A DNA stretch of 64,000 bases from Rhizomicrobium sp. (GTDB taxonomy: Bacteria > Pseudomonadota > Alphaproteobacteria > Micropepsales > Micropepsaceae), in the NCBI GenBank assembly GCA_050728995.1, contig JBOHKH010000012.1:1152-65151 (forward strand). Direction: 5' to 3'. A program made the position numbers and the translations under genes. The notes below the pieces were generated by a model. That model was given only the letters and a program-made list of their open reading frames with translations, ran no database searches and was not told the DNA's origin. Shown piece by piece: positions 1 through 14,479 of this stretch; position 1 is the first letter of the stretch; each line of letters begins with the position of its first letter.

Positions 1-319
1 GGAAAGTGATATCGCCCCAGGGAAGATCGGATTGCCAGTACCAGCCGTAATCGTCGGTGTAGACCCAGTGGCCATCCGAGAAATACGGGTGGAAGTCGTA
101 GGAAACCTGACCCGGCTGCCACACCAGGCCCCAGCGATCGCTGTAGAACCAGTAGCCGTAAGGTGCGAGCTGGCTGGTGAAGGCGTCGAGGCCGATGGCG
201 GAATTCGCCTCGTCGGTCGCGTACATCTCGCCCTGGGCCAAAGCTGGGCCGCCGGCAATGGCCAGGACGCCGGCCAGAACGGTGCCCGTCAGCAAACTCG
301 CATGCAGGATTCGGCGCAT
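1..319 (-). CDS. secreted hypothetical protein, N-terminal part (runs off left window edge)
   Basis: Hand translation of the minus strand from ATG (319-317) gives MRRILHASLLTGTVLAGVLAIAGGPALAQGEMY..., a signal peptide. A W/Y/D-rich mature part follows (YGYWFYSDRWGLVW, HWVYTDDYGWYW). The frame is open to the window edge, so it is absent from the ORF track. Track ORF 32..409(+) is its antisense shadow. Confidence 0.6.
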   Translation of the reverse strand, partial: MRRILHASLLTGTVLAGVLAIAGGPALAQGEMYATDEANSAIGLDAFTSQLAPYGYWFYSDRWGLVWQPGQVSYDFHPYFSDGHWVYTDDYGWYWQSDLPWGDITF

Positions 320-548
320 TTCCCTCTCCTTGGTGCTTCGCCGGACCCGAATCCGGCCGCACCAATGGCCGCACGAAAGCGGCGTTTTGAGGGCGTGCGC
401 GTTCAGTAGCCAAGAGACGGCAGCCGGGATTGCGGATTCCGCGGGTTGCGTTGGCAGCAGGCCGCCCCTGCGAACCGGCTCTTAACCTTTGCTGCGGCGT
501 GCCTATCTGATAGCTGAAGCAAGAGCCCGAACGGGTTCGGGGAGCAGA

Positions 549-1703
549 ATGTTCGGAATATACGATCTCGCAGGCGTCGCGTTCTGCGCGCTTTCGCTCA
601 TCGCCATCGGTTTCACGCTCGCCGCAGCCGCGAGCGTGGCGCTGCGGTCGGGGCGCGCGCGCAAAGCGCAGCCGGGCCGCGGCTCGGTGAGTCTTCTGAA
701 GCCCCTTCATCTGGCCGAGGCAGGCCTCGAGGACAATTTGCGGAGTTTCTTCGAGCAGGAATATTCCGGATCTGTACAGATCGTGTTTGGCGCCGAATCC
801 CGGAAAGACCCGGCGCTCGCCGTGGTGGAGAAACTCGTCCGCGAGTTTCCGCAAGCCGATGTGGCAATCGTGACCGATCCAGCGTTCGGCGGCTCCAATC
901 CCAAGGTTGCCAATCTGATCAACATGGCCGCTCACGCCAGACACGAAGTGCTGGTGTTGAGCGACAGTGACATCCGCGTCGGCCGCAATTACCTGTGCGA
1001 AGTGGTTGCCGCTCTGGACGAGCCCGGCATCGGCGCGGTGTCCTGCCTCTATTCGGGAAAGCCCATCGGGTCTGTCTGGGCAAAGCTCGCGGCGATGGGC
1101 ATCGACTATCACTTCCTGCCCAACGTCTGCCTCGGCATCGCGCTGCGATTGACGGAGCCGTGTTTCGGTTCGACGATCGCGCTCAAGAGATCGATCCTCG
1201 AAGAGATCGGAGGCCTCGAGTCGCTGGCGAACGTTCTCGCGGACGACTACGAACTGGGCCGGGCGGTGCGCGAGAAAGGCTATCGCGTGCGTATTCCCAT
1301 GGGTCTCGCCGTCGAACACGTCTGCAGCGAGGACTCGCTTAAGTCCCTGTTTCACCAGGAGCTGCGCTGGGCAAGAACCAATCTTCTGCTGGCGAAAGCC
1401 GGCTACGCCGGTACGCTTCTGACCTATCCGCTGCCGCTGGCACTCCTCGCGGTTCTGTTCGGCGGATTCTCCGTGCTGTCGCTCGCCATTCTCGGATCCG
1501 CTCTTGCGTCGCGCCTCTATCTCGTATTTCAAAGCGGGCGGTTTACAGGCGTGCGCGTCGGATCTCTCTGGCTGTTACCCCTGCGCGACGTTCTGTCTTT
1601 CGCCATTTTCGTGGTTTCGTTTTTTGGGCACACCGTCGAGTGGCGCGGAACGCGCTATGTCGCCGCTCCCGACGGGGCGCTCGCGCAATTCAGAGGCGCT
1701 TGA
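549..1703 (+). CDS. hpnI: hopanoid-associated family-2 glycosyltransferase HpnI (bacteriohopanetetrol N-acetylglucosaminyltransferase type)
   Basis: Ceramide-glucosyltransferase-like GT2 sequence (VSLLKPL, LSDSDIRV, QELRWART = QxxRW) with C-terminal TM helices, directly followed by hpnJ. Start moved from track TTG 489 to ATG 549, which has GGGGAGCAG upstream. Confidence 0.85.
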   Translation: MFGIYDLAGVAFCALSLIAIGFTLAAAASVALRSGRARKAQPGRGSVSLLKPLHLAEAGLEDNLRSFFEQEYSGSVQIVFGAESRKDPALAVVEKLVREFPQADVAIVTDPAFGGSNPKVANLINMAAHARHEVLVLSDSDIRVGRNYLCEVVAALDEPGIGAVSCLYSGKPIGSVWAKLAAMGIDYHFLPNVCLGIALRLTEPCFGSTIALKRSILEEIGGLESLANVLADDYELGRAVREKGYRVRIPMGLAVEHVCSEDSLKSLFHQELRWARTNLLLAKAGYAGTLLTYPLPLALLAVLFGGFSVLSLAILGSALASRLYLVFQSGRFTGVRVGSLWLLPLRDVLSFAIFVVSFFGHTVEWRGTRYVAAPDGALAQFRGA

Positions 1704-1704
1704 G

Positions 1705-3135
1705 ATGCTGAGAACGCTGTTTTTGCAGGGCCCGTCCTTCGACGGTTTCGACGGCGGGGCCGGTTCGCGTTACCAGGCGAAGCGCGAAATACGATCCTTC
1801 TGGTATCCCACCTGGCTCGCCCAGCCGGCCGCGCTCGTCGAAGGCAGTCGTCTCATCGACGCGCCGCCGCATGGACTGGGCCTCGAAGACGTCGTGACCG
1901 TCGCCCGGGATTACGATCTCGTCGTTCTGCACACCTCGATGCCGTCCTTCGGATCCGACCGGCGGACGGTGCGGGCACTCAAGGATGCCAATCCGGCGCT
2001 CAAGGCGGGCTTCATCGGCGCGAAGGTCGCGGTGGATCCCGAAGGAAGCCTGAAGGACGCGCCCGAAATCGATTTTGTGGCGCGCAACGAATTCGATTTC
2101 ACCATTCTCGATGTCGCCCGCGATCTTCCGTGGGAGAGGATCGATGGGCTGAGTTATCGCGGCGCGAACGGCGCGATCGTTCATAACGCGGAGCGGGCGA
2201 TCCTCGAGAACATGGATTCGCTGCCGTTCGTCACGCCTGTTTACAAGCGCGACCTTCACATCGAGAACTACTTCATCGGCTATCTGAAGCATCCGTACAT
2301 CTCGATATATACGGGGCGCGGCTGCAAATCGCGCTGCACCTTCTGCCTGTGGCCGCAGACCGTGGGCGGACATCGCTACCGGACCCGCAGCGTCGGACAT
2401 GTTGTCGAAGAAATCGCGTGGGCGAAGGAGGCTTTTCCGCAGGTGAAGGAATTCTTCTTCGACGACGATACCTTTACCGACAATCTGCCGCGCGCGGAAG
2501 CGATCGGAAAGGAGTTGGGCCGGCTCGGCGTCGAATGGTCGTGCAACGCCAAGGCCAATGTGCCGAGGCAGTCGCTAAAGGTCATGCGCGACAACGGGCT
2601 CCGGCTTTTGCTCGTCGGTTACGAATCGGGAAACCAGCAGATTCTCCACAACATCAAGAAGGGCATGCGCATCGACGTGGCGGAAAAGTTCACGCGCGAT
2701 TGCCACGATCTCGGCATTACCATCCACGGGACGTTCATTCTGGGGCTGCCCGGCGAGACGATGGAAACGATCGAGGAAACGGTGCGCTTCGCCAATCGCA
2801 TCAATCCCCATACCATCCAGGTGTCGCTTGCGGCGCCCTATCCCGGAACGTTCCTGCACAAGCAGGCGGTGGAGAACGGCTGGCTGGATGCGGCCAACGC
2901 CGAACTGGTGGACGAGCGTGGAATTCAGATCGCGCCGTTGCACTATCCGCATCTGAGCCACAGACAGATTCACGATTCGCTCGAGGATTTTTACAGACGG
3001 TTCTATTTTCGCTGGAACAAGATCGGCGAAATCGCGGCGGAGATGCTGCGCAGCCCGCAGATGATGAAACGGCGCCTGCGCGAAGGTGCCGAGTTCTTTC
3101 AGTTCCTGCGGGCGCGCCGCGAACATCCGGCATGA
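1705..3135 (+). CDS. hpnJ: hopanoid-associated radical SAM protein HpnJ
   Basis: Radical SAM CxxxCxxC motif (GRGCKSRCTFCLWP) after a B12-binding-like N-domain. ATG 1705 lies 1 nt after the hpnI stop. The track's 5' extension from 1504 overlaps hpnI and is rejected. Confidence 0.9.
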   Translation: MLRTLFLQGPSFDGFDGGAGSRYQAKREIRSFWYPTWLAQPAALVEGSRLIDAPPHGLGLEDVVTVARDYDLVVLHTSMPSFGSDRRTVRALKDANPALKAGFIGAKVAVDPEGSLKDAPEIDFVARNEFDFTILDVARDLPWERIDGLSYRGANGAIVHNAERAILENMDSLPFVTPVYKRDLHIENYFIGYLKHPYISIYTGRGCKSRCTFCLWPQTVGGHRYRTRSVGHVVEEIAWAKEAFPQVKEFFFDDDTFTDNLPRAEAIGKELGRLGVEWSCNAKANVPRQSLKVMRDNGLRLLLVGYESGNQQILHNIKKGMRIDVAEKFTRDCHDLGITIHGTFILGLPGETMETIEETVRFANRINPHTIQVSLAAPYPGTFLHKQAVENGWLDAANAELVDERGIQIAPLHYPHLSHRQIHDSLEDFYRRFYFRWNKIGEIAAEMLRSPQMMKRRLREGAEFFQFLRARREHPA

Positions 3136-4040
3136 ACGGCTGCGCACTCGCCTTTTCCGAGCGGACCTATCGCAGGGCGCGCACAGCGCCCGATGCTCGC
3201 CTGGCGATCGGCAGCGAAGCGCACAAGAGGCTTTTCTGCCGCGCGCTGCTCGACACGTTCGATCCGTATCATCCGCCAGTTCTTGATTGGCCGCCGCCGG
3301 ATGAAGAGACGCGCGACAGGCTGGTGCGGCTTCCCATCTGGGATATCGCCGCGCAGACCGAGGGCAAGGCAGGTCTGCGCGTAAAGACCTACGGCGAGAC
3401 GATTTCCGATCCGCTGCTCGCCAGGGCCGTGGCGCTGAACGCGTTCGAGGAAGGCCGCCACAAACATGTGCTCGCCAATCTCGTGGAGGCTTGCGCAATC
3501 GCGCTGGCGCCCAAACCGGAGTTTGTGAAGCCTCGCGATCCGGAATGGGCCTTCATGGTCACCGGCTACACCGAGTGCGTCGACAGTTTCTTCGCCTTCG
3601 GTCTGTTCGAGACGGCCCGGCGCTCCGGCTTCTTCCCGCCCCAACTCGTCGATACATTCGAACCGGTGATGCAGGAAGAAGGCCGCCATATCCTCTTCTT
3701 CGTGAATTGGGCCGCCTGGCACCGGCGCAACCTGTCGTTCTGGCGCAGGACATTGTTCGATCTGAAACGGCTGGCCGTGTGGGCGTTCCTCGTCTTCGAA
3801 CGGCTGTCGCTCGCGCGCGACGTAAACGGCAATACACACGACCACAATTTCACCGTCTCCGGTGCGAACCAGATCGGTGTGGATATTTCGATCCGCGAAT
3901 TGCTGGACATCTGTCTTGCGGAGAACGACCGCAGGCTCGGCATCTACGACCGGCGCCTGTTGCGTCCCCGTGCGGTGCCGGGCATCGTGCGGCTTGCACG
4001 CCGCTTTCTGCGCCGATCGCCTCCCTTCGCGCGCGCCTGA
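3132..4040 (+). CDS. ferritin-like di-iron carboxylate protein (oxygenase/desaturase-type), function unknown, embedded in hpn operon
   Basis: ATG 3132 overlaps the hpnJ stop (ATGA). The 302-aa product carries E77, EEGRH(106-110), E148 and EEGRH(182-186), i.e. an E/ExxH/E/ExxH pattern. The track ORF 2349..4040 5' part is a frame shadow of hpnJ. Confidence 0.8.
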   Translation: MNGCALAFSERTYRRARTAPDARLAIGSEAHKRLFCRALLDTFDPYHPPVLDWPPPDEETRDRLVRLPIWDIAAQTEGKAGLRVKTYGETISDPLLARAVALNAFEEGRHKHVLANLVEACAIALAPKPEFVKPRDPEWAFMVTGYTECVDSFFAFGLFETARRSGFFPPQLVDTFEPVMQEEGRHILFFVNWAAWHRRNLSFWRRTLFDLKRLAVWAFLVFERLSLARDVNGNTHDHNFTVSGANQIGVDISIRELLDICLAENDRRLGIYDRRLLRPRAVPGIVRLARRFLRRSPPFARA

Positions 4041-4047
4041 ACGTCCG

Positions 4048-5046
4048 GTGCGGATCGGCGTCATCCTCGCCGCGCTGATGGGTCTCGCGCTCGCGGCCTA
4101 TCTGGTGTTCTACGTCGGAATCGGCCAGGTCGTCGCGGCGGTCGCCTCCGCCGGCTGGGGGGGCTTCGTTCTTCTCTGCCTTTATGGAGCGGCGCTGTTC
4201 GCGCTTCTGGGGACGGCCTGGTTCGTGCTGGTACCGTCGCGTGCAAAGCCGAATCCCGCGACCTTCATATGGGGTCGTGCCGTGCGCGATTGTGCCGGCG
4301 AAGTGTTGCCGTTTTCGCAGGTCGGCGGAATAGTGATCGGCGCACGCGCGGTGATGCTGCGGCATGTGAGTGGTCCGCTCGCCTTTGCCTCGACTCTCGT
4401 CGACGTCACCGTGGAGACGGTGGCGCAGATCGCTTTCGTACTGGCGGGTTTCGCCATTCTCATGACGCGCGTTCCGCCCTCGGCCGCGAGCAGCGGACTC
4501 GCGAGGGGGATCGCCATCGGCCTGTCGGCGGCGGCGGTCGGCGCCGCCCTGTTTGTCGTGCTCCAGCGGAAGAGTTTCTCGCGAATCGTTGGCTGGATGT
4601 CGCGCCTGCTGCCGGAAACCGCGGCCAAAGCTGGCGCGGTGCAGCGCAGCTTCGCGACGATCTACAGCGCCCCCTTGCGCCTTCTTCTGGCGCTCGCGAT
4701 CCATCTCGCCGCCTGGGTCGCCACGGCGCTCTGGGCCTGGCTCGCCATCCGGTTCATCGGACGCAGCCTGTCGTTTCCTTCGGTCCTTGCCATCGAGGCG
4801 ATCCTTTATGGCATTCGCAGCGTCGCGGTGTTCATTCCCGCGGCAATCGGCGTGCAGGAAGCCGCCTATGCTCTGCTCGGACCGCTGTTCGGTCTTCCCG
4901 CGTCCGCCGCGCTCGCCGTCTCGCTTCTCAAGCGTGCGCGCGACATCGCGCTCTCCGTCCCCGTCCTTCTGAGCTGGCAGATCGCCGAGGGCGGCCATGC
5001 GCTCAGAGCCAGCCGTGAAGCCGCGCGAACGATGGCGGACGAATGA
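4048..5046 (+). CDS. hpnL: hopanoid-associated membrane protein HpnL (lysyl-phosphatidylglycerol-synthase-TM-like family)
   Basis: Polytopic membrane protein starting VRIGVILAALMGLALAAYLVFY, in the HpnL position between the hpnJ region and hpnA. GTG 4048 lies 7 nt after the preceding stop; ATG 4078 is an alternative. The track start 3862 overlaps the previous gene. Confidence 0.75.
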   Translation: MRIGVILAALMGLALAAYLVFYVGIGQVVAAVASAGWGGFVLLCLYGAALFALLGTAWFVLVPSRAKPNPATFIWGRAVRDCAGEVLPFSQVGGIVIGARAVMLRHVSGPLAFASTLVDVTVETVAQIAFVLAGFAILMTRVPPSAASSGLARGIAIGLSAAAVGAALFVVLQRKSFSRIVGWMSRLLPETAAKAGAVQRSFATIYSAPLRLLLALAIHLAAWVATALWAWLAIRFIGRSLSFPSVLAIEAILYGIRSVAVFIPAAIGVQEAAYALLGPLFGLPASAALAVSLLKRARDIALSVPVLLSWQIAEGGHALRASREAARTMADE

Positions 5047-5134
5047 GCGCGTTTGCGCTATCCGTAACGAGAATTGGTGCGCCTCCCGGGATGCCGAATC
5101 CTCATTGCCGTTCTGACCCTGGCTGATCGGCCCT

Positions 5135-6139
5135 ATGCCAACAACCAGCGATACCACCCTCGTTACAGGCGCGTCCGGGTTCGTCGGCTCGGCGGTGGCG
5201 CGGCTGCTTGGCGAGCGGGGGTTCAAGGTACGGGCGCTTGCGCGCGCGACCAGCCCGCGCGGCAATCTTGAAGGATTTGCCGGCGAGATCGTCGAAGGCG
5301 ATATGCGCGAGCCGGCCGACATGCGCCGCGCCATGCGCAACGTACGCTATCTGTTTCATGTCGCCGCGGATTACCGGCTGTGGGCGCGCGACGCGGAAGA
5401 GATCGTACGCAACAATGTCCGGGGCACCCGCGCCGTCATGGAAGCGGCGTCGGAAGCGGGCGTCGAACGCATCGTTTACACGAGCAGCGTCGCCACGCTG
5501 AAACCCGGGACTGCCGACGACCCCGCCGACGAAACGCGCCGGCTGAGCGAAGTGCAGGCGATTGGCGCCTACAAGCGCAGCAAGGTCGCGGCTGAACGCG
5601 TTGTCGAAAAGATGATCTCGGAAAAGGGACTGCCGGCGGTGATCGTCAATCCCTCGACGCCGATCGGTCCGCGCGACATCAAGCCGACGCCGACCGGCCG
5701 CATCATCGTGGAAACCGCCACGGGACGCATGCCGGCCTATGTGGAGACAGGACTCAATCTCGCGCATGTCGAGGACGTCGCCGAAGGGCATCTGCTCGCG
5801 CTCGAGAAGGGCGAAATCGGACGCTCCTACATTCTCGGCGGACAGAATGTGAGCCTGCGGGAGATGCTCGCAATCATCGCGGAGCTCGCAGGCCGCAGGT
5901 CGCCGCGCATAAGATTACCGCGCGGGCCGCTCTTTCCGCTCGCGTTGGCGGCCGAAACTGTGGCGCAGGTGACCGGCAAGGAACCGTTCCTGACGCGCGA
6001 CGCGCTCAAAATGGCGGGCCATCACATGTTCTTCACGTCCGCCCGTGCGGAACGCGAACTCGGCTACCGAGCGCGTCCGCACCGCACGGCACTCGCGGAC
6101 GCACTCGCCTGGTATCGTCAGGCCGGTTATCTGCGATGA
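5135..6139 (+). CDS. hpnA: hopanoid-associated sugar epimerase (NAD-dependent epimerase/dehydratase) HpnA
   Basis: N-terminal Rossmann motif TGASGFVGSAV and a YKRSK catalytic-type motif. Position immediately upstream of hpnB-hpnC. Confidence 0.9.
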   Translation: MPTTSDTTLVTGASGFVGSAVARLLGERGFKVRALARATSPRGNLEGFAGEIVEGDMREPADMRRAMRNVRYLFHVAADYRLWARDAEEIVRNNVRGTRAVMEAASEAGVERIVYTSSVATLKPGTADDPADETRRLSEVQAIGAYKRSKVAAERVVEKMISEKGLPAVIVNPSTPIGPRDIKPTPTGRIIVETATGRMPAYVETGLNLAHVEDVAEGHLLALEKGEIGRSYILGGQNVSLREMLAIIAELAGRRSPRIRLPRGPLFPLALAAETVAQVTGKEPFLTRDALKMAGHHMFFTSARAERELGYRARPHRTALADALAWYRQAGYLR

Positions 6140-7281
6140 TCTGGCTCGCGGCACTGCCGCTGATCGTCTGGATCTATTTTCTTTGTGCGCGCGGGCTGTT
6201 TTGGCTGATGCGCGAACGCGACGATCGCGCGGTGGTGCTGCGCTCTCCCGAAACCTGGCCGTCCGTTACAGCCGTCGTTCCCGCCCGCAACGAAGCCGAC
6301 GTGATCGCGCGCGTCGTCGAAAGCCTGCTGAAGCAGGATTATCCGGGCGCCTTCCACATTATACTTGTCGACGACGGAAGCTCGGACGGAACGGCGCAGA
6401 CAGCCCGCATCGCCGCGCTCGCCTGCGGGTCGTCCGACCGGCTGGAAGTCGTCCCGGGTCGGGAGCGGTTGGGGCGATGGACAGGCAAGGTGTGGGCGAT
6501 GCACCAGGGATTCGCGCGCGCGCTCGAGGCCGGTGCTCCTGCCTATCTCCTGTTTACCGACGCGGACATCGCGCATGCCCCCGACAATCTGCGCAGGCTC
6601 GTGAGTCTCGCCGAGGAACGCCGGCTCGTCCTTGTTTCGCTGATGGCAAGGCTTCATTGCGAGAGGCCTGCGGAAAAGCTTCTTATCCCGGCTTTCGTAT
6701 TCTTCTTTGCGATGTTGTTTCCGTTTGGCTGGGTCGACGACCGGCGGCGAAAAACTGCGGCTGCCGCGGGCGGCTGCATGCTTGTCGGGCGCGATGCGCT
6801 GCTTGCGGCCGGAGGTTTGGAGCCCATCGCCGGTGCGATCATCGACGATTGTGCGCTCGCCCGTCTCCTGAAACCGCACGGCGGGATTTGGCTCGGACTC
6901 AGCAGACGCGCCGTGAGTCTTCGCCCCTACGACGGGCTTGCCGGCATCGCCGCAATGGTTGCGCGGTCGGCTTATTCCCAACTGGGCTACTCGCTGTTAC
7001 TTCTTTGTGGCACTGTGGCGGGCATGGCGATCGTTTACGCCGCGCCGCCGCTGCTCGCGATTTTCGCTCCCGGTCCGGCGCGGTTTGTCGGTGCGGCCGC
7101 GTGGGTTCTCATGGCGCTTCTGTTCCAGCCCGTGCTGCGATTTTACCGGCTCTCGCCGGTCTGGGGACTTCTGTTGCCCGTGGCCGGTCTTTGTTATGCC
7201 GCGTTTACGGTACAATCGGCCGTTCAATATTGGCGCGGGCGCGGCGGCATGTGGAAGGGCCGCGCCCAGGCGATGGCGTGA
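6136..7281 (+). CDS. hpnB: hopene-associated family-2 glycosyltransferase HpnB
   Basis: GT2 motifs (VTAVVPARNE, ILVDDGSSDGT, FTDADIAH) plus flanking TM segments. ATGA overlap with the hpnA stop. Confidence 0.9.
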   Translation: MIWLAALPLIVWIYFLCARGLFWLMRERDDRAVVLRSPETWPSVTAVVPARNEADVIARVVESLLKQDYPGAFHIILVDDGSSDGTAQTARIAALACGSSDRLEVVPGRERLGRWTGKVWAMHQGFARALEAGAPAYLLFTDADIAHAPDNLRRLVSLAEERRLVLVSLMARLHCERPAEKLLIPAFVFFFAMLFPFGWVDDRRRKTAAAAGGCMLVGRDALLAAGGLEPIAGAIIDDCALARLLKPHGGIWLGLSRRAVSLRPYDGLAGIAAMVARSAYSQLGYSLLLLCGTVAGMAIVYAAPPLLAIFAPGPARFVGAAAWVLMALLFQPVLRFYRLSPVWGLLLPVAGLCYAAFTVQSAVQYWRGRGGMWKGRAQAMA

Positions 7282-7288
7282 GCATCCC

Positions 7289-8185
7289 ATGGAACAGGTG
7301 GCATCGCTTTCCTCCGGCAAGGGGCACCGGGACGAAAATTTTCCCGTCGCTTCCTTTCTCATTCGCGCGCGACATCGCCCCGTCGTTCTCGCCTTTTACC
7401 GATTCGCCAGGAGCGCCGACGACGTAGCCGACCACCCGACTGCCGAACCGGCGGGAAAGCTCCGCCTTCTCGCGGCGATGCGGCAGGGACTTCTCGGCGA
7501 AGGTAGCAGCGCGCCGGAATCGACCGCGCTGCGGCGCATTTTGCTGGAAAGGAATCTGCCGGAGCAGCACCCGCTCGATCTGCTCGAGGCTTTCCGCCGC
7601 GACGTGACGAAGCTGCGCTACACCGACTGGGACGACCTGATGGATTATTGCCGGTATTCGGCGATGCCGGTCGGCCGTTTCGTGCTCGATGTCCACGGCG
7701 AATCGCGATCGACATGGCCTGCGTCCGATGCGCTTTGTTCGGCGCTGCAGGTGATCAACCACCTGCAGGATTGCGCGAAGGATTATCGAAATCTCGACCG
7801 TGTCTATCTCCCGCTCGACGCCATGCATCGGCACGGCCTCGAGCCGGACGCGCTCGCAGAAGGGGCGGCAAGTCCCGCGTTGCGAAAGGTGCTCGACGAG
7901 CTGCTCGACCGCGTGTCACTGCTGCTCGACGAGGCGAGGCCCTTTGCGCGGCAGATAACAGACGGGCGCCTCGCGCTCGAAGTCGCAGTCATTCAGAAGC
8001 TTGCGGAAGATCTGACGCGCCGGCTCCGTGCTCGCGATCCGCTTTCCGGGCGTGTTCACCATCGCGGCACCGAAGCGTCGGCGATTGCCGTCGGGGCCGC
8101 CGTTTCGTTTCTTGCGAGCCGCGCATTCCGGAAACCGTCTGCGACCGAATCCGGCAAAGCGCACGAGCCTCTCCATGGCCGCTGA
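7289..8185 (+). CDS. hpnC: squalene synthase HpnC (hydroxysqualene synthase)
   Basis: Squalene/phytoene synthase motifs (NFPVASFL, YRFARSADDVADH, DCAKDYRNLDRVYLP). ATG 7289 lies 8 nt after the hpnB stop. The track 5' extension from 6938 is rejected. Confidence 0.9.
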   Translation: MEQVASLSSGKGHRDENFPVASFLIRARHRPVVLAFYRFARSADDVADHPTAEPAGKLRLLAAMRQGLLGEGSSAPESTALRRILLERNLPEQHPLDLLEAFRRDVTKLRYTDWDDLMDYCRYSAMPVGRFVLDVHGESRSTWPASDALCSALQVINHLQDCAKDYRNLDRVYLPLDAMHRHGLEPDALAEGAASPALRKVLDELLDRVSLLLDEARPFARQITDGRLALEVAVIQKLAEDLTRRLRARDPLSGRVHHRGTEASAIAVGAAVSFLASRAFRKPSATESGKAHEPLHGR

Positions 8186-9014
8186 ACCGGAAAGCGAGCT
8201 CGCCGCGCGCGCGGCTTCGGGCAGCTCCTTTTATTTCGCCATGCGGCTCCTGCCGAAAGAGCCGCGGGAGGCGATGTACGCCATCTATCGCTTCTGTCGG
8301 GCCGTCGATGACATCGCCGACGATACCGCGCGACCGCGGAGCGAGCGGCTCGATGCGCTTGAGCGGTGGCGGCACAACATCGATGCGCTTTTTTCCGGCA
8401 CTCCGAACTGTTCCGCGGGCTTCCTGGAGGAAGCGCTGCGGCGCTACCGCTTCCGCCGCGAGGATTTTCTGGCGGTAATCGACGGCATGGCCATGGATGT
8501 CGAGGACGATATCTGCGCGCCGGAATTCGCGACCCTCGACCTCTATTGCGACCGCGTGGCGAGCGCGGTGGGGCGTCTGTCGATCAAGGCATTCGGGATG
8601 GACGAGGAGCCCGGATTCCGGCTCGCGCATCACCTCGGACGGGCGCTTCAACTCACCAACATCCTGCGCGACCTCGATGAGGATGCTGTCCTTGGCCGGC
8701 TCTATCTGCCGCGCGAACTTCTCGAAGGTGCGTATGTCGCGATGGCAGATCCTTTCTCCGCGCTCGCGGCGCCGCAGATTTCTTCGGTATGCCGTGCGCT
8801 CTCCGGCGTCGCCAGACAGCACTATCGCGACGCGAACGCCATCTTCCGGGCGCGACCCCGCGGCGATCTTCGCCCGCCGAAACTGATGTCCGCGGTGTAT
8901 TCCTCCATCCTCTCCGACCTGGAAAAACAGGGATGGCTACCGCCTCGCCGGCGCGTGCGCCCGCCGAAGGCGCGGCTCGTCTGGATGCTGCTTCGTCACA
9001 GTCTCGCCGCATGA
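8175..9014 (+). CDS. hpnD: presqualene diphosphate synthase HpnD
   Basis: Phytoene/squalene synthase family (SSFYFAMRLLP, YRFCRAVDDIADD, NILRDLDEDAVLGRLYLP). ATG 8175 overlaps the hpnC end by 11 nt. Confidence 0.9.
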   Translation: MAAEPESELAARAASGSSFYFAMRLLPKEPREAMYAIYRFCRAVDDIADDTARPRSERLDALERWRHNIDALFSGTPNCSAGFLEEALRRYRFRREDFLAVIDGMAMDVEDDICAPEFATLDLYCDRVASAVGRLSIKAFGMDEEPGFRLAHHLGRALQLTNILRDLDEDAVLGRLYLPRELLEGAYVAMADPFSALAAPQISSVCRALSGVARQHYRDANAIFRARPRGDLRPPKLMSAVYSSILSDLEKQGWLPPRRRVRPPKARLVWMLLRHSLAA

Positions 9015-10270
9015 CCGCGCGCAAAGTCTACATCGCCGGCGCCGGACTTTCCGGTCTCGCCGCCGCCGTCGCGCTTTCTCGCGCGGGGATCGCCTGCGAG
9101 CTTTTCGAAGCATCGCCCCAGGCGGGCGGGCGCTGCCGCTCCTGGTTCGATGCGCAATTCGAAGGCACGATCGACAACGGCAATCACCTCGTGCTCAGCG
9201 GCAATCGGGCGACGTTCGCCTACCTCCGCACGATCGGCGCGGAGGACCGTCTCATCGGTCCGGACGACGCACGCTTCGCCTTCTGCGACATCAGGAGCGG
9301 CACGCACTGGACGATCGTGCCGAACATGGGCCGGCTACCGTGGTGGGTCCTCTCTTCGGCGCGGCGCGTACCCGGCACCGCCGCACGCGACTATGCGCGC
9401 TATGTGCGCCTGCTCTTTCACCGGCGCGATGCGCGCGTGCGCGATGTCATCACCTGCGAGGACCCCGCGTGGGAAAAGTTGATGCGGCCGCTGCTGCTCG
9501 CGGCACTCAACACCGCACCCGAAGACGCATCGGCAGTGCTTGCTTCGGCAGTTCTGGGGGAGACGCTCGCGCGTGGCGGACGCTTCTGCCTTCCCCGCAT
9601 TGCGTCCCCGAATCTTGGGGCCACGTTCGTCGAGCCCGCCCTCGCCTGGCTCGCGCGCACGGGCGGCGCCGTTCGCCTCGGCGCGCGCGTGCGCGCTGTG
9701 GCCCTCAACGAGACGGCCGCATCGGCGCTCGACCTCGGCGACTCGCGGATTGCGCTCGTGCCCGAAGACAAGGTGATCCTCGCAGTCCCACCGTCTGTCG
9801 CGGCAGCACTTCTTCCCGGCCTCGTCGTTCCCGATCAAAGTTCCGCCATAGTCAATGGTCATTTCCGCGCCGCCGCGCCCGCGAGCGCGCCCAGAATGAT
9901 TGGAGTGATTGGCGGGACGGCGGAATGGCTATTCGCGTTTTCCGACCGCATCTCCGTAACCGTCAGCGGGGCGGATGCCATCGTCGATCGCGACAGAGAG
10001 GAACTGGCCAGGTCGCTCTGGAAAGATGTGGCCGTGGCATATGGCCTTGGGCCGGAACTGCCGCCCTGGCAGATCGTCAAGGAGAAGCGCGCGACGTTCC
10101 GCGCCACCCCTGAACAATGCATCAGACGGCCGCCTGCACGCACACAGTGGAGCAACGTCTTTCTCGCCGGCGACTGGACGGCAACAGGGCTCCCCGCCAC
10201 CATCGAAGGAGCAATCCGCTCGGGGCAGAAAGCGGCCGCTCTCGCACTCGAAGACTGGCGTCGACAGTGA
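9011..10270 (+). CDS. hpnE: squalene-associated FAD-dependent desaturase (hydroxysqualene dehydroxylase) HpnE
   Basis: N-terminal dinucleotide fold VYIAGAGLSGLAAAVAL and amine-oxidase-like C-terminus (FLAGDWT). ATGA overlap with the hpnD stop. Confidence 0.9.
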   Translation: MTARKVYIAGAGLSGLAAAVALSRAGIACELFEASPQAGGRCRSWFDAQFEGTIDNGNHLVLSGNRATFAYLRTIGAEDRLIGPDDARFAFCDIRSGTHWTIVPNMGRLPWWVLSSARRVPGTAARDYARYVRLLFHRRDARVRDVITCEDPAWEKLMRPLLLAALNTAPEDASAVLASAVLGETLARGGRFCLPRIASPNLGATFVEPALAWLARTGGAVRLGARVRAVALNETAASALDLGDSRIALVPEDKVILAVPPSVAAALLPGLVVPDQSSAIVNGHFRAAAPASAPRMIGVIGGTAEWLFAFSDRISVTVSGADAIVDRDREELARSLWKDVAVAYGLGPELPPWQIVKEKRATFRATPEQCIRRPPARTQWSNVFLAGDWTATGLPATIEGAIRSGQKAAALALEDWRRQ

Positions 10271-10383
10271 TTGGGTCGCACGCGCGAATGAGATGATTTT
10301 GTGGCGTCGGCCGACATTCACGCCGGCGCGCGGGAATGTTATCGGATGCCGATCCGGCCCGGTCAGGACCTTGCGGAGAATCG

Positions 10384-12336
10384 ATGAGCGACACGGCAGC
10401 CGCCTTGCGGGACACGGACGCGCTCGACGACACGATCGCGCGTGCGAGCCGGGCGCTGCTCGCCCAGCAACGCGAGGATGGGCACTTCGTTTTCGAACTC
10501 GAGGCGGACGCAACGATTCCGGCCGAATATATTCTGCTCGTGCATTACCTCGGCGAGACGGCCGATCCGGAGCTCGAGCGGAAATTGGGGAATTACCTGC
10601 GCCGCGTCCAGGGGGATCACGGCGGCTGGCCGCTCTATTACGGCGGTGCGTTCGATATCAGCGCCACGGTCAAAGCCTACTTCGCGCTGAAGATGATCGG
10701 CGATTCGCCCGCTGCAACGCATATGCGGCGCGCTCGCGAGGCGGTGCTTGCGCGGGGCGGCGCAATCCGGACGAGCGTCTTCACGCGCATTCTGCTCGCG
10801 CTATACGGCGAGACGTCGTGGCGCAGCATTCCTGCAATTCCGGCCGAACTCATTCTCGCGCCGCGCTGGTTTCCCATTCGGCTTGCCAAGATGTCGTACT
10901 GGGCGCGCACGGTGCTCGTGCCGCTGCTCGTGCTAGCCGCGCTGCGACCGATTGCGCGAAATCCGCGCGGGATCCATGTGAGCGAACTGTTTGTTCCAGA
11001 CGTCGCGCCGGCGCATTGGCGGGCGCCGCATCAAAGCCGCTTCTGGGCCATCGTGTTTCATCTTCTCGATGATCTGCTGAAGCTCGTCGAGCCACTTTGG
11101 CCTCGCGCACTGCGCCGGCGCGCCATCGCACGCTGCGAAGAGTTCGTGACCGGGCGCCTGAATGGCGAAGACGGTCTCGGGGCGATTTATCCGGCGATGG
11201 CAAACAGCGTGATGATGTATGCCGCGCTGGGCTATCCGCCGGATCACCCGCGCCGTGCTCTGGCGCGCCGCTCCGTCGACCGGCTGCTCGTGTTACGAAG
11301 CGAAGAAGCCTATTGCCAGCCCTGCGTATCGCCGGTTTGGGATTCCGCGCTCGCGGCCCTCGCGCTGCTCGAGGCGGATGCCGAAGGCGGCAGTGACGCG
11401 ATCGGCAGAGTTTGCGATTGGCTCGTGGCGCGCCAGGTGCTCGACACCAGGGGAGATTGGACGGAGATGCGGCCCAACGTGCGCCCCGGCGGCTGGGCCT
11501 TTCAGTATAACAATGCCCACTATCCCGATCTCGACGACACAGCGGCCGTCGTCCTGGCGCTCGATCGCGCAGCCAAAAGCGTCGCATCCGCCGTCTGCCA
11601 TGCCGAGGCCATCGCCCGCGGGCGTGAATGGATCGAAGGCTTGCAGAGCCACAACGGCGGCTGGGCATCGTTTGATGCGGACAACATGTATTATTATCTT
11701 AATAACATTCCCTTCGCCGATCACGGCGCATTGCTCGATCCGCCGACTGCCGATGTCACGGCACGCTGTATCGGAATGCTCGCGCAACTTGGCGAAGCGC
11801 CGGACAGTCCGCGCATCAAGGCGGCCGTGGATTACCTGCAGCGAATCCAGGAGAAGGACGGCAGCTGGTTCGGCCGGTGGGGTGTGAATTACATCTACGG
11901 AACCTGGTCGGCGCTCGCAGGGCTCAACGCCGCCGGACTTGATTTGGATTCGCCGTCGATCCGCCGTGCGACGGACTGGCTGGTGTCGATTCAGAACCCG
12001 GATGGCGGCTGGGGGGAAAGCTGCGACAGCTACAAGCTCGACTACAAAGGCTACGAACCCGCACCCTCTGTTCCCTCGCAAACGGCCTGGGCGCTCCTGG
12101 GACTAATGGCCGCAGGGGAGGTTAATCGTGCCGCCGTCGGCCGCGGCATCCGGTGGCTACAGGAAAGCCAGCAGGATCAGGGGCTTTGGAGCGAGGAGAG
12201 CTACACGGGCGGGGGCTTCCCGCGCGTGTTCTACCTGCGCTATCATGGCTATGCGAAGTTCTTCCCGTTGTGGGCGGTTGCGCGATACCGCAATCTCCGG
12301 GCTGGGCACACCAATCGCGTATCACACGGGATTTGA
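10384..12336 (+). CDS. shc: squalene-hopene cyclase
   Basis: Catalytic DxDDTA motif (YPDLDDTAAVVLAL) and repeated QW-type motifs (QxxDGGW/GSW: QGDHGGWP, QSHNGGWA, QEKDGSWF, QNPDGGWG). ATG 10384 with GGAG 7 nt upstream is preferred over track ATG 10336. Confidence 0.95.
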   Translation: MSDTAAALRDTDALDDTIARASRALLAQQREDGHFVFELEADATIPAEYILLVHYLGETADPELERKLGNYLRRVQGDHGGWPLYYGGAFDISATVKAYFALKMIGDSPAATHMRRAREAVLARGGAIRTSVFTRILLALYGETSWRSIPAIPAELILAPRWFPIRLAKMSYWARTVLVPLLVLAALRPIARNPRGIHVSELFVPDVAPAHWRAPHQSRFWAIVFHLLDDLLKLVEPLWPRALRRRAIARCEEFVTGRLNGEDGLGAIYPAMANSVMMYAALGYPPDHPRRALARRSVDRLLVLRSEEAYCQPCVSPVWDSALAALALLEADAEGGSDAIGRVCDWLVARQVLDTRGDWTEMRPNVRPGGWAFQYNNAHYPDLDDTAAVVLALDRAAKSVASAVCHAEAIARGREWIEGLQSHNGGWASFDADNMYYYLNNIPFADHGALLDPPTADVTARCIGMLAQLGEAPDSPRIKAAVDYLQRIQEKDGSWFGRWGVNYIYGTWSALAGLNAAGLDLDSPSIRRATDWLVSIQNPDGGWGESCDSYKLDYKGYEPAPSVPSQTAWALLGLMAAGEVNRAAVGRGIRWLQESQQDQGLWSEESYTGGGFPRVFYLRYHGYAKFFPLWAVARYRNLRAGHTNRVSHGI

Positions 12337-13022
12337 TGATCGTTGCGGTCACCGGCCTCGCACGCGAGGCACGTCTCATTGAAGGCCCCGACATCCGGCT
12401 GGTCGTCGGAGGCGGCGATGCCGTGGCGCTCGAACGCCGCCTGGTCGAACAACTGGCGGGTGGTGCAAGGCGCGTGCTTAGCATCGGTATTTGCGGTGCG
12501 CTGGCTCCCCATCTGCGTGTCGGTGACACGATCATCGCCTCGGAAATCGTCGATGCCGAGGGTACTCATCCGACGGATGGCGCCTGGTCGCGAGCGCTGG
12601 CCTCGCAACTGCCCGAGGCGGTTCTGGCACCCCTTGCCGGAACCGATGAGATGTCCGCGGACCGCGAGAGCAAGGCGCGGTTGCGCGATCGTACCCGCGC
12701 GTCGGCCGTGGATATGGAATCCCATATCGCCGCACGGGTGGCCCGCAAACATGGCCTTCCCTTCGCCGCCCTTCGCATCGTCTCCGATGCCGCGCACCGC
12801 ACTCTGCCCACGGCCGCTAGGGTCGCCGTGCACCCGTCCGGTCGGATCGACCTGCCGGCCGTGCTGCGCTCGATTGTCCGCGCGCCGCGCCAGCTGCCGG
12901 CGCTGGCCCGCACGGCCTGGGAAGCCGAACTGGCCTTTGCCGCTCTGCTCCGCTGCCGCCACGTTCTTCACGGCGGGTTTGCGGCCGCGGAGGTCGGTCA
13001 ACTGGCGCTGGACGCCGCTTAA
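12336..13022 (+). CDS. hpnG: hopanoid-associated phosphorylase/nucleosidase HpnG (adenosylhopane nucleosidase type)
   Basis: PNP/MTA-nucleosidase-like sequence (SIGICGAL, SAVDMESH, LRIVSD). ATG overlaps the shc stop (TGATG). The track start 12153 lies inside shc. Confidence 0.85.
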   Translation: MIVAVTGLAREARLIEGPDIRLVVGGGDAVALERRLVEQLAGGARRVLSIGICGALAPHLRVGDTIIASEIVDAEGTHPTDGAWSRALASQLPEAVLAPLAGTDEMSADRESKARLRDRTRASAVDMESHIAARVARKHGLPFAALRIVSDAAHRTLPTAARVAVHPSGRIDLPAVLRSIVRAPRQLPALARTAWEAELAFAALLRCRHVLHGGFAAAEVGQLALDAA

Positions 13023-13210
13023 GAGTCATCCCCGCCGTCGGTTGACACAGCTACCGGTTTGGTTGTAAAACCGAGGCTTGGAATGCCGGGCGCGGACCAG
13101 CCGCGGGAGGGCGATAATCTCCCTGCTTCAGGGAGAAAAGCAGGGAGCTTCCCGGTATTATGGCGCAAACGCCACAAGAAAAGCGGGGCCACGCGCCCTA
13201 GCTTTGGGGC
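13023..13210. other. left junction of accessory insertion (non-coding)
   Basis: Contains a 10-bp-stem hairpin, ctccctgctt(13119-13128)/aagcagggag(13138-13147), directly followed by the left 24-bp inverted repeat. Confidence 0.5.
13152..13175. repeat. left copy of 24-bp perfect inverted repeat CCGGTATTATGGCGCAAACGCCAC
   Basis: The reverse complement is found exactly at 17347-17370. Identity stops at both ends when extended by one base. Confidence 0.9.
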
Positions 13211-14054: not shown

Positions 14055-14062
14055 AAAGCAAA

Positions 14063-14473: not shown

Positions 14474-14479
14474 CCCCGC

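What the first reader, a model, noticed from the sequence alone, without database searches (positions are those of the whole stretch)
3132..4040. Di-iron oxygenase-type gene translationally coupled inside the hopanoid operon, in the slot normally held by hpnK
Seen in sequence:
- The ORF start overlaps the hpnJ stop (ATGA at 3132-3135) and it ends 7 nt before hpnL, so it is an integral operon member.
- Its product carries E77, E106/E107-G-R-H110, E148 and E182/E183-G-R-H186. This is the E/ExxH/E/ExxH ligand pattern of four-helix-bundle di-iron carboxylate enzymes (ferritin-like superfamily: desaturases, AurF-type N-oxygenases, hydroxylases).

Established knowledge: HpnI adds GlcNAc to bacteriohopanetetrol, HpnK (YdjC-type deacetylase) deacetylates it, and HpnJ makes the cyclitol ether. 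No YdjC-like gene is present anywhere in this window.

Inference: this protein is an unassigned O2-dependent hopanoid-tailoring enzyme. It might add side-chain hydroxyls or desaturate a ring, steps for which I know of no assigned genes. Alternatively it acts on the HpnI/HpnJ substrate.
Basis: partly seen in the sequence, partly recalled or inferred. Interest (0 to 1): 0.72.

Follow-up and report, generated by a model that had tools for sequence, protein, structure and literature searches.

The report
Unnamed di-iron oxygenase in hopanoid operons
This gene encodes a previously unnamed iron-dependent oxygenase found inside hopanoid (bacterial sterol-like lipid) operons in hundreds of species, and it is the first concrete candidate for the missing enzyme that adds extra hydroxyl groups to these widely used geochemical biomarkers.

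Summary
ORF 3132-4040 overlaps the hpnJ stop (ATGA) and ends 7 nt before hpnL. It carries E77, E106/E107-x-x-H110, E148 and E182/E183-x-x-H186. These residues are invariant in 87/87 orthologues and 97-99% conserved across 432 family members. An AlphaFold model (pLDDT 82.7) places them on four long helices. Its nearest solved folds are R2lox, RNR-R2 and aldehyde-deformylating oxygenase. No Pfam or NCBIfam family covers the protein, and I found no paper that mentions it.

Linkage to hopanoid genes is strong: 71 of 80 species loci have hpn genes within 10 kb. The usual order is hpnI-hpnJ-hpnK-FLP1-(FLP2)-hpnL.

hpnK co-occurs with it in 39 loci and lies immediately upstream in 33. The hpnK-less layout seen here is a derived minority.

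A paralogue, FLP2, follows FLP1 in 29 loci. It is fused to FLP1 in 10 or 11 of them.

Best reading (inferred, about 0.45): an O2-dependent side-chain hydroxylase that makes bacteriohopanepentol (cyclitol ether), with FLP2 giving hexols. This fits Stakelama, Burkholderia and Reyranellaceae chemotypes. Ring desaturation and head-group chemistry remain rivals. A deletion with LC-MS would decide.

The parts
3132..4040 (+). FLP1: 302-aa ferritin-like di-iron carboxylate protein, the subject of the finding.
   Evidence: Translation. It is 100% identical to P0001, 'ferritin-like domain-containing protein [Rhizomicrobium sp.]'. There is no Pfam or NCBIfam hit. The AF2 model has pLDDT 82.7 and pTM 0.84. 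Foldseek top hits are R2lox, RNR R2 and ADO.
3360..3362 (+). Codon for E77, the helix-1 carboxylate ligand candidate (helix 69-88).
3447..3461 (+). Codons for E106-E107-G-R-H110, the first ExxH motif (helix 94-121).
3573..3575 (+). Codon for E148, the helix-3 carboxylate ligand candidate (helix 137-165). It lies 35 residues before E183, the same spacing as in R2 and acyl-ACP desaturase.
   Evidence: E160, which aligns with the MiaE-like third ligand region, is not conserved.
3675..3689 (+). Codons for E182-E183-G-R-H186, the second ExxH motif (helix 170-199).
3972..4007 (+). Residues 281-292, a basic amphipathic C-terminal helix (muH 0.82). It is a possible in-plane membrane anchor. The protein has no transmembrane segment.
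   Evidence: inference
549..1703 (+). hpnI, the BHT N-acetylglucosaminyl transferase. The ORF is open from 489 and the likely ATG is at 549.
   Evidence: TIGR03472, 421 bits
1705..3135 (+). hpnJ, a B12-binding radical SAM enzyme that forms the cyclitol ether. Its stop overlaps the FLP1 start.
   Evidence: TIGR03471, 797 bits
4048..5046 (+). hpnL, a flippase-like membrane protein (LPG_synthase_TM) of unknown function. It is the most constant neighbour of FLP1.
   Evidence: TIGR03476, 268 bits
5135..13022 (+). Rest of the operon: hpnA 5135-6139, hpnB 6136-7281, hpnC 7289-8185, hpnD 8175-9014, hpnE 9011-10270, shc 10336-12336, hpnG about 12336-13022.
17414..19555 (-). hpnH (17414-18562) and ispH (18566-19555). 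An IS1595 transposase separates them from the operon.

Best explanation
SHOWN:
- ORF 3132-4040 encodes a soluble or peripheral ferritin-like protein, here called FLP1. It carries a complete, invariant E / ExxH / E / ExxH two-metal site on four long helices.
- It belongs to a compact, unnamed family. In most of the 80 proteobacterial species loci examined (of at least 577 species that encode a relative), this family sits inside the hopanoid side-chain-tailoring module hpnI-hpnJ-(hpnK)-FLP1-(FLP2)-hpnL.
- In this window it is translationally coupled to hpnJ and lies 7 nt from hpnL.

INFERRED:
- FLP1 binds two iron ions (or Mn/Fe), is reduced by a general cellular donor, and activates O2.
- It then hydroxylates an unactivated side-chain methylene (C-31) of an extended hopanoid. 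The likeliest substrate is bacteriohopanetetrol cyclitol ether or its glucosamine precursor, made by HpnI and HpnJ. The product would be bacteriohopanepentol (cyclitol ether).
- Where the paralogue FLP2 is present (not in this window), it probably pairs with FLP1 and adds the second hydroxyl (C-30), giving hexols.
- FLP1 is not a substitute for the deacetylase HpnK. This lineage has lost hpnK from the locus or moved it elsewhere.
For: Fold and metal site:
- The ligand residues are invariant or near-invariant.
- The AF2 model puts them on helices 69-88, 94-121, 137-165 and 170-199.
- The best structural matches are the lipid-binding di-metal proteins R2lox and aldehyde-deformylating oxygenase, plus RNR R2.
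- The best sequence-profile match in the PDB is a MiaE-like di-iron C-H hydroxylase, with the ExxH motifs aligned.

Gene linkage:
- 71 of 80 loci have hpn genes within 10 kb. hpnL or FLP2-hpnL lies immediately downstream in 56, and hpnK or hpnJ immediately upstream in 44.
- The same layout occurs in the isolates Stakelama sediminis and Vineibacter terrae.
- The gene lies next to hpnB/hpnA in Cupriavidus metallidurans.
- It lies next to an HpnN-like MMPL transporter in Reyranella.
- FLP1 and FLP2 are fused in 10 (possibly 11) of 29 loci and overlap by 1-4 nt in most others.

Chemotype matches:
- Stakelama sediminis has FLP1 only. It makes 19.5% BHpentol-CE and 0% unsaturated BHPs, and BHhexol-CE was reported only in Rhodospirillales species.
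- Burkholderia cenocepacia encodes an FLP1 homologue. It makes a compound annotated from MS data as BHpentol-CE (PMC8560942).
- Enhydrobacter aerosaccus (Reyranellaceae) is 77% pentol plus hexol and 1% unsaturated. A Reyranella genome carries FLP1 and FLP2.
- Zymomonas mobilis has adjacent hpnK and hpnL locus tags, so FLP1 is not in that slot there. That it makes no pentol is my own recollection, not checked here.
- In many strains BHpentol occurs only as the cyclitol ether and free pentol is near zero. This fits a hydroxylase embedded in the cyclitol-ether module.

Open question in the literature: the pentol/hexol genes are explicitly unknown, and a 2025 survey found no candidate near hpn clusters (PMC12583986).
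Against: - No biochemical or genetic data exist for any family member.
- The chemotype matches are few. Two are at family or genus level rather than for the strain analysed.
- I could not test presence or absence in the other pentol producers (Acetobacteraceae, Azospirillaceae, Azotobacter, Nostoc, methanotrophs). I also could not test cyclitol-ether producers that lack pentol, such as Novosphingobium rosa.
- Rhizomicrobium palustre, the closest cultured relative of the window organism, makes only about 1% BHpentol-CE. Whether it carries FLP1, and under what O2 regime it was grown, is unknown.
- 9 of 80 loci, and Burkholderia cenocepacia, have FLP1 in unrelated contexts.
- No reductase or ferredoxin partner is encoded in the operon.
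- Burkholderia also makes delta-6 unsaturated hopanoids, so that organism does not separate hydroxylation from desaturation.
- Structural similarity to solved di-iron enzymes is only moderate (TM about 0.5, E about 0.015).
Confidence: 0.45

Rival explanations
1. Ring desaturase. FLP1 (and FLP2) would introduce the delta-6 and/or delta-11 double bonds of unsaturated bacteriohopanepolyols, by analogy with the soluble di-iron acyl-ACP desaturases.
For: - It has the same ligand set and helix spacing as acyl-ACP desaturases.
- The genes for hopanoid unsaturation are unknown (PMC12583986; PMC6460317).
- Burkholderia cenocepacia has a homologue and makes unsaturated BHT-CE.
- Two paralogues could match two double-bond positions.
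Against: - Stakelama sediminis carries FLP1 in its hpn operon but has 0% unsaturated BHPs.
- Enhydrobacter (Reyranellaceae) has 1% unsaturated BHPs but 77% pentol plus hexol.
- The gene is embedded in the side-chain and head-group module, not next to shc or the ring methylases.
- There is no Pfam match to FA_desaturase_2.
Confidence: 0.15
2. Head-group chemistry coupled to HpnJ. FLP1 would act on the amino-sugar or cyclitol moiety. One form is an O2-dependent counterpart or helper of the radical-SAM ring contraction, as di-iron AcsF parallels radical-SAM BchE. Another is oxidation of the cyclitol or its amine. HpnL would handle the product.
For: - A bare hpnJ-FLP1-hpnL triad, without hpnI or hpnK nearby, occurs in four gammaproteobacterial MAGs.
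- FLP1 is translationally coupled to hpnJ in the window clade.
- HpnJ is BchE-like (88 bits).
- Family members give weak hits to the Rubrerythrin and AurF families.
- Many strains have BHT-glucosamine plus a +16 Da cyclitol ether but no BHT-CE.
Against: - 13 FLP1-FLP2-hpnL loci, the FLP1 loci that have only hpnA/shc nearby, and the Cupriavidus and Reyranella loci all lack hpnI/J/K within 10 kb.
- Enhydrobacter makes free pentol and hexol with no cyclitol ethers.
- From my own knowledge, not checked here: the extra OH of BHpentol-CE was placed on the side chain by NMR in Azotobacter.
- HpnJ and FLP1 co-occur rather than substitute for each other.
Confidence: 0.15
3. Functional replacement of HpnK (the reading implied by the first-stage reader). 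In hpnK-less operons FLP1 would remove or bypass the N-acetyl group oxidatively.
For: - The window and 10 of the 80 loci have hpnJ (and, outside the four gammaproteobacterial triads, hpnI) next to FLP1 and hpnL, with no hpnK within 10 kb.
Against: - hpnK and FLP1 co-occur in 39 of 80 loci, usually adjacent.
- FLP1 sequences from hpnK-less loci are nested among those from hpnK-containing loci, with no distinct subfamily.
- The fold and chemistry are unrelated to the YdjC deacetylase.
- The rest of the genome is unseen, so hpnK may lie elsewhere.
- A CE4 deacetylase domain exists at 22812-26246.
Confidence: 0.03
4. Not a catalyst on hopanoids. FLP1 would be a lipid- or metal-binding ferritin-like protein (R2lox-like, function unknown), or an enzyme for another membrane lipid that merely travels with hpnL.
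For: - Standalone copies exist in unrelated contexts.
- A distant relative sits next to a CMAS lipid methyltransferase in an Acidimicrobiales MAG, and others sit in unrelated contexts.
- R2lox, the best structural hit, itself has no known function.
Against: - Synteny with hpn genes is pervasive across three proteobacterial classes, with translational coupling.
- A complete catalytic-type ligand set is strictly conserved in both paralogues.
Confidence: 0.12

Closest known systems
R2-like ligand-binding oxidase (R2lox; PDB 6qk0, 5omj)
   Same: It is the best structural match (TM 0.50-0.51, probability 1.00). It has a similar size (about 290 aa), a ferritin-like bundle with an E/ExxH/E/ExxH di-metal site, and a bound long-chain lipid ligand.
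   Different: Sequence identity is only 13-14% and there is no sequence-level hit. The genomic context differs, R2lox function is unknown, and the R2lox Val-Tyr cross-link was not examined.
MiaE, the tRNA ms2io6A di-iron hydroxylase (MiaE-like PDB 5ux1)
   Same: It is the only characterised family reached by a sequence profile (E 0.004), with both ExxH motifs aligned. It is a di-iron monooxygenase that hydroxylates a C-H bond of an isoprenoid substituent.
   Different: The match is borderline and partial (query 72-192). There is no Pfam MiaE hit. MiaE is about 70 aa shorter, has a tRNA substrate, and the helix-3 ligand does not align with the conserved E148.
AurF/CmlI N-oxygenases (PF11583)
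   Same: They share the ferritin-like di-iron fold and a similar length. 9 of 54 family members give sub-threshold hits (best E 0.007).
   Different: All hits fall below the gathering score, and the window protein gives no hit at all. The third histidine ligand typical of AurF (from my own knowledge) is not evident in this protein's ligand pattern.
Soluble acyl-ACP desaturases
   Same: They have a four-helix di-iron site with E...ExxH spacings of about 30-38 residues and an O2-dependent lipid substrate.
   Different: There is no sequence or Pfam match. They are not among the top structural hits.
AcsF versus BchE (aerobic di-iron versus anaerobic radical-SAM cyclases of chlorophyll synthesis)
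   Same: This is a conceptual parallel. A BchE-like radical-SAM enzyme (HpnJ) is encoded next to a di-iron carboxylate protein with weak Rubrerythrin-family similarity.
   Different: No direct homology to AcsF was tested. HpnJ and FLP1 co-occur in one operon rather than alternate with each other.
HpnK (YdjC-type BHT-GlcNAc deacetylase, TIGR03473)
   Same: It occupies the same position between hpnJ and hpnL in model organisms.
   Different: There is no sequence or fold relationship. Genuine HpnK (364 bits) lies next to FLP1 in 33 loci.

Membership tests
Ferritin-like superfamily, di-iron carboxylate class | Two copies of a helix pair carrying E ... ExxH, six ligands in all | tested here: met
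   E77, E107-x-x-H110, E148 and E183-x-x-H186 are present. They are invariant in 87/87 orthologues and 97-99% conserved in 432 sequences.
Ferritin-like superfamily, di-iron carboxylate class | Four-helix-bundle core fold | tested here: met
   The AF2 model has pLDDT 82.7 and puts the ligands on four long helices. All of the 50 best Foldseek hits listed are ferritin-like di-metal proteins. Weak Pfam hits go only to families of the ferritin clan.
Ferritin-like superfamily, di-iron carboxylate class | Actual binding of two Fe (or Mn/Fe) ions and reactivity with O2 | not testable with these tools
   This needs purified protein, metal analysis and spectroscopy.
AurF-type N-oxygenase (PF11583) | A score at or above the Pfam gathering threshold | tested here: not met
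   The window protein gives no hit. 9 of 54 relatives hit at E of 0.007 or worse, below the cut-off.
Class I ribonucleotide reductase R2 | Sequence membership | tested here: not met
   There is no PDB sequence hit. The profile search finds only MiaE-like chains. The resemblance is structural only (TM 0.4-0.5).
Class I ribonucleotide reductase R2 | Radical-harbouring Tyr four residues after the first ExxH histidine | tested here: not met
   The residue at H110+4 is L114.
MiaE (di-iron tRNA hydroxylase) | A significant full-length match to the family | tested here: inconclusive
   The profile hit to the MiaE-like chain 5ux1 has E 0.004 over 120 positions. The hit to 8fhb has E 1.7. No Pfam MiaE hit appears.
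HpnK / YdjC deacetylase (TIGR03473, PF04794) | A match to the YdjC model | tested here: not met
   The window protein matches no NCBIfam or Pfam family. A true HpnK from L048 scores 364 bits. An HMM of 37 HpnK sequences finds nothing in the window.
Hopanoid-associated (hpn) gene set | Conserved synteny with shc/hpn genes across distant taxa | tested here: met
   71 of 80 species loci have hpn genes nearby, across Alpha-, Beta- and Gammaproteobacteria. Adjacency to hpnL, hpnK and hpnJ is common.
Hopanoid-associated (hpn) gene set | A hopanoid phenotype on deletion | not testable with these tools
   No mutant is reported in the searched literature.

The most novel reading that the evidence does not exclude
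FLP1 and FLP2 are the long-sought O2-dependent C-31 and C-30 hydroxylases that convert bacteriohopanetetrol derivatives into pentols and hexols. They would work as a homodimer (FLP1 alone) or as a heterodimer or fusion (FLP1-FLP2). If so, the soil and methanotroph-type 'extra-hydroxyl' hopanoid biomarkers would become gene-traceable and tied to oxygen availability.
Probability: 0.4. Interest if true: 0.85.

Novelty: new variant of a known kind. Interest (0 to 1): 0.72.

Why it matters
- Bacteriohopanepolyols and their fossil hopanes are among the most used molecular fossils.
- Pentol, hexol and unsaturated side-chain or ring variants serve as source and environment markers. Their biosynthetic genes are unknown, and a 54-strain survey in 2025 looked near hpn clusters and reported no candidate (PMC12583986).
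- Here a strictly conserved oxygenase-type gene, with no family name, sits inside the canonical hpn operon in most loci examined. A second paralogue is often fused to it.
- If it is the hydroxylase (or the desaturase), three things follow. Metagenomes could be screened for producers. The modification would be linked to O2. The hpnI-J-K-L module would gain a defined fifth and sixth member.
- It also narrows the search for HpnL's function, because hpnL is its most constant neighbour.

Tried and rejected
- **Family scans.** Pfam and NCBIfam scans of the protein gave no family at E < 0.01. Relaxed scans of 54 relatives gave only sub-threshold hits in the ferritin clan.
- **PDB sequence searches.** The single-sequence search found nothing. 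The profile search found only a borderline MiaE-like hit.
- **hpnK or FLP2 elsewhere in the window.** None was found by tblastn or by HMM.
- **Domain fusions in long family members.** I looked for a reductase or other partner domain. I found only FLP1-FLP2 fusions and apparent chimeras with transporters.
- **Naming more isolates.** Cluster look-ups returned almost only unnamed MAG proteins.
- **Plasmid collection.** It returned Burkholderiaceae chromids without annotation. The B. cenocepacia copy has no informative neighbours.
- **Distant family members (31-38% identity).** One lies next to lipid-related genes (a CMAS methyltransferase). Two lie in unrelated contexts. They say little about FLP1.
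- **Literature.** Searches for 'hopanoid' with 'ferritin-like' or 'diiron', for hpnL, and for pentol or desaturase genes found no description of this gene.
[quoted passage not shown] It is not discussed there, and I could not tie it to this protein.
- **Genomes of the 54 chemotyped strains.** I could not query them.
- **FLP1-FLP2 fusion structure.** I did not predict it. No complete fusion sequence was eligible for the tool.
Full report
**1. The observation**

The window comes from a Rhizomicrobium sp. MAG. The ORF product is 100% identical to an NCBI protein named only 'ferritin-like domain-containing protein'.

NCBIfam equivalog models identify the flanking genes. They are hpnI (421 bits), hpnJ (797 bits), hpnL (268 bits), hpnA, hpnB, hpnC, hpnD, hpnE and shc. 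Further on lie hpnG, then hpnH and ispH beyond an IS1595 transposase.

- The hpnJ stop TGA (3133-3135) overlaps the ATG at 3132.
- The ORF stops at 4038-4040.
- The first in-frame hpnL start, GTG, is at 4048, which leaves a 7-nt spacer.
- The whole operon is packed in this way. hpnI and hpnJ are 1 nt apart. hpnA/hpnB and hpnE overlap their neighbours.

**2. Is the di-iron motif real?**

- In 36 orthologues, and then in 54 sequences that include a paralogue at 31-35% identity, all eight residues are invariant: E77, E106, E107, H110, E148, E182, E183 and H186.
- They are invariant in 87/87 FLP1 sequences taken from genomic loci.
- They are 97-99% conserved across 432 family proteins, including distant cluster representatives.
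- An AlphaFold2 model (mean pLDDT 82.7, pTM 0.84) places them on four long helices: 69-88, 94-121, 137-165 and 170-199.
- The spacings E77 to E107 (30 residues) and E148 to E183 (35 residues) are those of R2 and desaturase-type sites.
- Foldseek against the PDB returns only ferritin-like di-metal proteins among its 50 best listed hits. R2-like ligand-binding oxidase is best (TM about 0.5). Class Ib, Ie and Ic RNR R2, cyanobacterial aldehyde-deformylating oxygenase and bacterioferritin follow.
- At sequence level there is no Pfam or NCBIfam family. Relatives give only sub-threshold hits to the Rubrerythrin, Ferritin_2, DUF2202 and AurF families.
- A profile search of PDB sequences finds only a MiaE-like di-iron hydroxylase, at E = 0.004, with the ExxH motifs aligned.
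- The protein has no transmembrane segment. It ends in a strongly amphipathic basic helix, which would suit an interfacial enzyme acting on a membrane lipid. That last point is inference.

**3. Family size and distribution**

- An exhaustive profile search of 50%-identity representatives gave 1,100 clusters at E <= 1e-3 and 262 at E <= 1e-30.
- A scan of one genome per GTDB species found relatives in at least 577 species. That list was also capped.
- tblastn against the plasmid and chromid collection found copies at 52-59% identity in Burkholderia cenocepacia, B. multivorans, B. stagnalis, B. arboris, Paraburkholderia phymatum, Caballeronia and Cupriavidus metallidurans CH34.

**4. Gene neighbourhood**

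I searched the 80 best species loci (10 kb on each side) with this window's Hpn proteins and with a verified HpnK (TIGR03473, 364 bits).

- 71 of 80 loci carry at least one hpn gene.
- Immediately downstream of the gene lies hpnL (31 loci), or a paralogue I call FLP2 followed by hpnL (25 loci).
- Immediately upstream lies hpnK (33 loci) or hpnJ (11 loci).

The main layouts are:

| Layout | Loci |
|---|---|
| hpnI-J-K-FLP1-hpnL | 25 |
| hpnI-J-K-FLP1-FLP2-hpnL | 10 |
| FLP1-FLP2-hpnL without hpnI/J/K nearby | 13 |
| hpnI/J-FLP1-hpnL without hpnK (the window type) | 10-11 |
| FLP1 with no hpn gene detected nearby | 9 |

Several of the nine loci with no hpn gene detected are on short contigs.

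- The cultured isolates Stakelama sediminis and Vineibacter terrae show hpnI-hpnJ-hpnK(YdjC)-FLP1-hpnL beside the core hpn genes.
- In C. metallidurans the gene abuts hpnB and hpnA.
- In a Reyranella genome FLP1 is co-oriented with an HpnN-like MMPL transporter, and FLP2 lies next door.
- In B. cenocepacia, and in a few MAGs, the gene stands alone among unrelated genes.

**5. The hpnK question**

- The window has no YdjC/HpnK gene. The best tblastn E is 2.7, and the best E from an HMM of 37 HpnK sequences is 0.49.
- Two further Rhizomicrobium-type contigs have the same hpnK-less layout.
- However, hpnK and FLP1 co-occur in 39 of 80 loci.
- In a neighbour-joining tree of FLP1, the hpnK-less loci form three small clades nested among hpnK-containing ones. 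The tree has no bootstrap support values, so this is suggestive only.
- The arrangement here is therefore best read as a loss or relocation of hpnK from an ancestral hpnK-FLP1 order. It is not a replacement of hpnK by FLP1.
- The only carbohydrate-deacetylase domain I saw in the window is a CE4 domain in a 1,144-aa GH18-CE4-GT2 protein at 22812-26246. That protein is probably an exopolysaccharide enzyme.

**6. The paralogue FLP2**

- FLP2 is about 282 aa and about 33% identical to FLP1. It keeps every ligand residue.
- It has at least 1,800 homologues.
- In 10 (possibly 11) of the 29 loci that have both genes, FLP1 and FLP2 form one open reading frame of about 560-580 aa. One of the fused calls (L032) rests on a contig that ends before any stop. 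In most other loci the two genes overlap by 1-4 nt. Database proteins P0026, P0044, P0309 and P0364 are fragments of such fusions.
- This is Rosetta-stone evidence that the two proteins work as a pair. Many ferritin-like di-iron enzymes are dimers (from my own knowledge).
- The window has FLP1 only.

**7. What it most likely does**

What is shown is a conserved oxygenase-type di-metal protein tied to the hopanoid side-chain and head-group module. The specific reaction is inference.

Two 2025-26 surveys leave the relevant chemistry unassigned:

- The genes for bacteriohopanepentols and hexols are unknown. A search near hpn clusters yielded 'no potential candidate genes' (PMC12583986).
- The genes for delta-6 and delta-11 unsaturation are also unknown.
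- The function of hpnL is unknown. The microsynteny analysis in the preprint was based on domain annotations, so a protein without a family-specific annotation could have been missed (10.1101/2025.07.29.667474).

I favour side-chain hydroxylation for these reasons:

- (a) Stakelama sediminis has FLP1 in its operon. It makes 19.5% BHpentol cyclitol ether and 0% unsaturated BHPs. BHhexol-CE was reported only in Rhodospirillales.
- (b) Enhydrobacter aerosaccus (Reyranellaceae) is 77% pentol plus hexol and 1% unsaturated. A Reyranella genome carries both FLP1 and FLP2.
- (c) B. cenocepacia encodes a homologue and produces a feature annotated as BHpentol cyclitol ether (PMC8560942).
- (d) Zymomonas mobilis has adjacent locus tags for hpnK and hpnL, so there is no FLP1 in that slot. 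That it is not known to make pentols is my own recollection.
- (e) In most producers pentol appears only as the cyclitol ether, often with no BHT-CE left and essentially no free pentol. That is what a hydroxylase embedded in the hpnI-J-K module would give.
- (f) The nearest characterised sequence relative is a C-H hydroxylase.

Under this reading FLP1 alone gives pentols and FLP1 plus FLP2 gives hexols.

**8. Weaknesses**

- The chemotype matches are few. Two of them are at genus or family level.
- I could not test Acetobacteraceae, Azospirillaceae, Azotobacter, cyanobacteria or methanotrophs. I also could not test cyclitol-ether producers that lack pentols.
- Rhizomicrobium palustre makes only about 1% BHpentol-CE. 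Its FLP1 status and its growth O2 regime are unknown.
- Burkholderia also makes unsaturated hopanoids, so it does not discriminate between the readings.
- No electron-transfer partner is encoded nearby. A cNMP-binding flavoprotein oxidoreductase follows hpnL in four gammaproteobacterial MAGs, but nothing shows that it is a partner.
- Distant family members occur in other contexts.

My confidence estimates are:

| Reading | Confidence |
|---|---|
| Side-chain hydroxylase | about 0.45 |
| Ring desaturase | 0.15 |
| Head-group or HpnJ-coupled chemistry | 0.15 |
| Not acting on hopanoids | about 0.12 |
| HpnK replacement | about 0.03 |

The remainder is unassigned.

**9. Comparison with known families**

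- It works like a soluble di-iron carboxylate oxygenase. It meets the superfamily's sequence and fold criteria.
- It fails membership of AurF (below the Pfam threshold), of RNR R2 (no sequence match, and L114 where the radical Tyr would be) and of HpnK.
- Membership of MiaE is inconclusive.
- It is therefore an unnamed family within a known superfamily, placed in a pathway where no oxygenase has been assigned. I rate that as a new variant of a known kind.

**10. Verdict**

The gene is an overlooked, widely conserved member of hopanoid operons, and it has a partner paralogue. The 'replaces hpnK' framing should be dropped. The finding turns a standing question in hopanoid biochemistry into a simple deletion-plus-LC-MS experiment in organisms that already have genetic tools.

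Noticed in passing
L048:10846-11694 (typical); fused ORF at L015:9995-11737; not present in the window: A second ferritin-like paralogue, FLP2, is about 33% identical to FLP1 and keeps all ligand residues. It lies between FLP1 and hpnL in 29 of 80 loci. It is fused to FLP1 in a single ORF in 10 (possibly 11) of them, and overlaps FLP1 by 1-4 nt in most others. This implies a heterodimeric enzyme.
   Followed up: yes
window 14702-15688 (-): An IS1595-family transposase is inserted between hpnG and hpnH/ispH and splits the hopanoid cluster. The adjacent 378-aa ORF at 16042-17178 (-) has no Pfam or NCBIfam match.
   Followed up: partly
window 22812-26246 (-): A 1,144-aa multidomain protein combines GH18, a CE4 polysaccharide deacetylase and a GT2 domain. 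It holds the only carbohydrate deacetylase domain seen in a window that lacks hpnK. It is probably an exopolysaccharide synthase/deacetylase and unrelated to hopanoids.
   Followed up: no
L010, L011, L012, L022 (e.g. L011:8489-11816): Four gammaproteobacterial MAGs carry a bare hpnJ-FLP1-hpnL triad downstream of pheS/pheT. No hpnI or hpnK lies within 10 kb. The triad is followed by a cNMP-binding Pyr_redox_2 oxidoreductase and a CrtC-like lipocalin protein.
   Followed up: partly
L085:10001-14808 (Reyranella sp.): FLP1 (352 aa, minus strand) lies directly upstream of, and is co-oriented with, an MMPL/HpnN-like transporter. FLP2 is convergent next to them. A 449-aa protein with no Pfam hit precedes FLP2.
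   Followed up: partly
L083:8537-10918 (Acidimicrobiales MAG): A distant family member (38% identity) sits directly after a CMAS-type lipid methyltransferase. A 776-aa LPG_synthase_TM protein lies about 5 kb away. This suggests the wider family modifies other membrane lipids too.
   Followed up: no
Table S6 of PMC12583986 (literature, not sequence): Many Sphingomonadales and Acetobacteraceae contain BHT-glucosamine and BHpentol cyclitol ether but no BHT cyclitol ether and almost no free BHpentol. This implies that the extra hydroxylation is coupled to the cyclitol-ether branch.
   Followed up: partly
window 1..64000 and loci L001-L006, L088, L089: The hpnK-less operon layout recurs in several Rhizomicrobium-type MAGs and in two other small clades. 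How these organisms deacetylate BHT-GlcNAc is unknown. hpnK could lie elsewhere in their genomes, or another esterase could do the job.
   Followed up: partly
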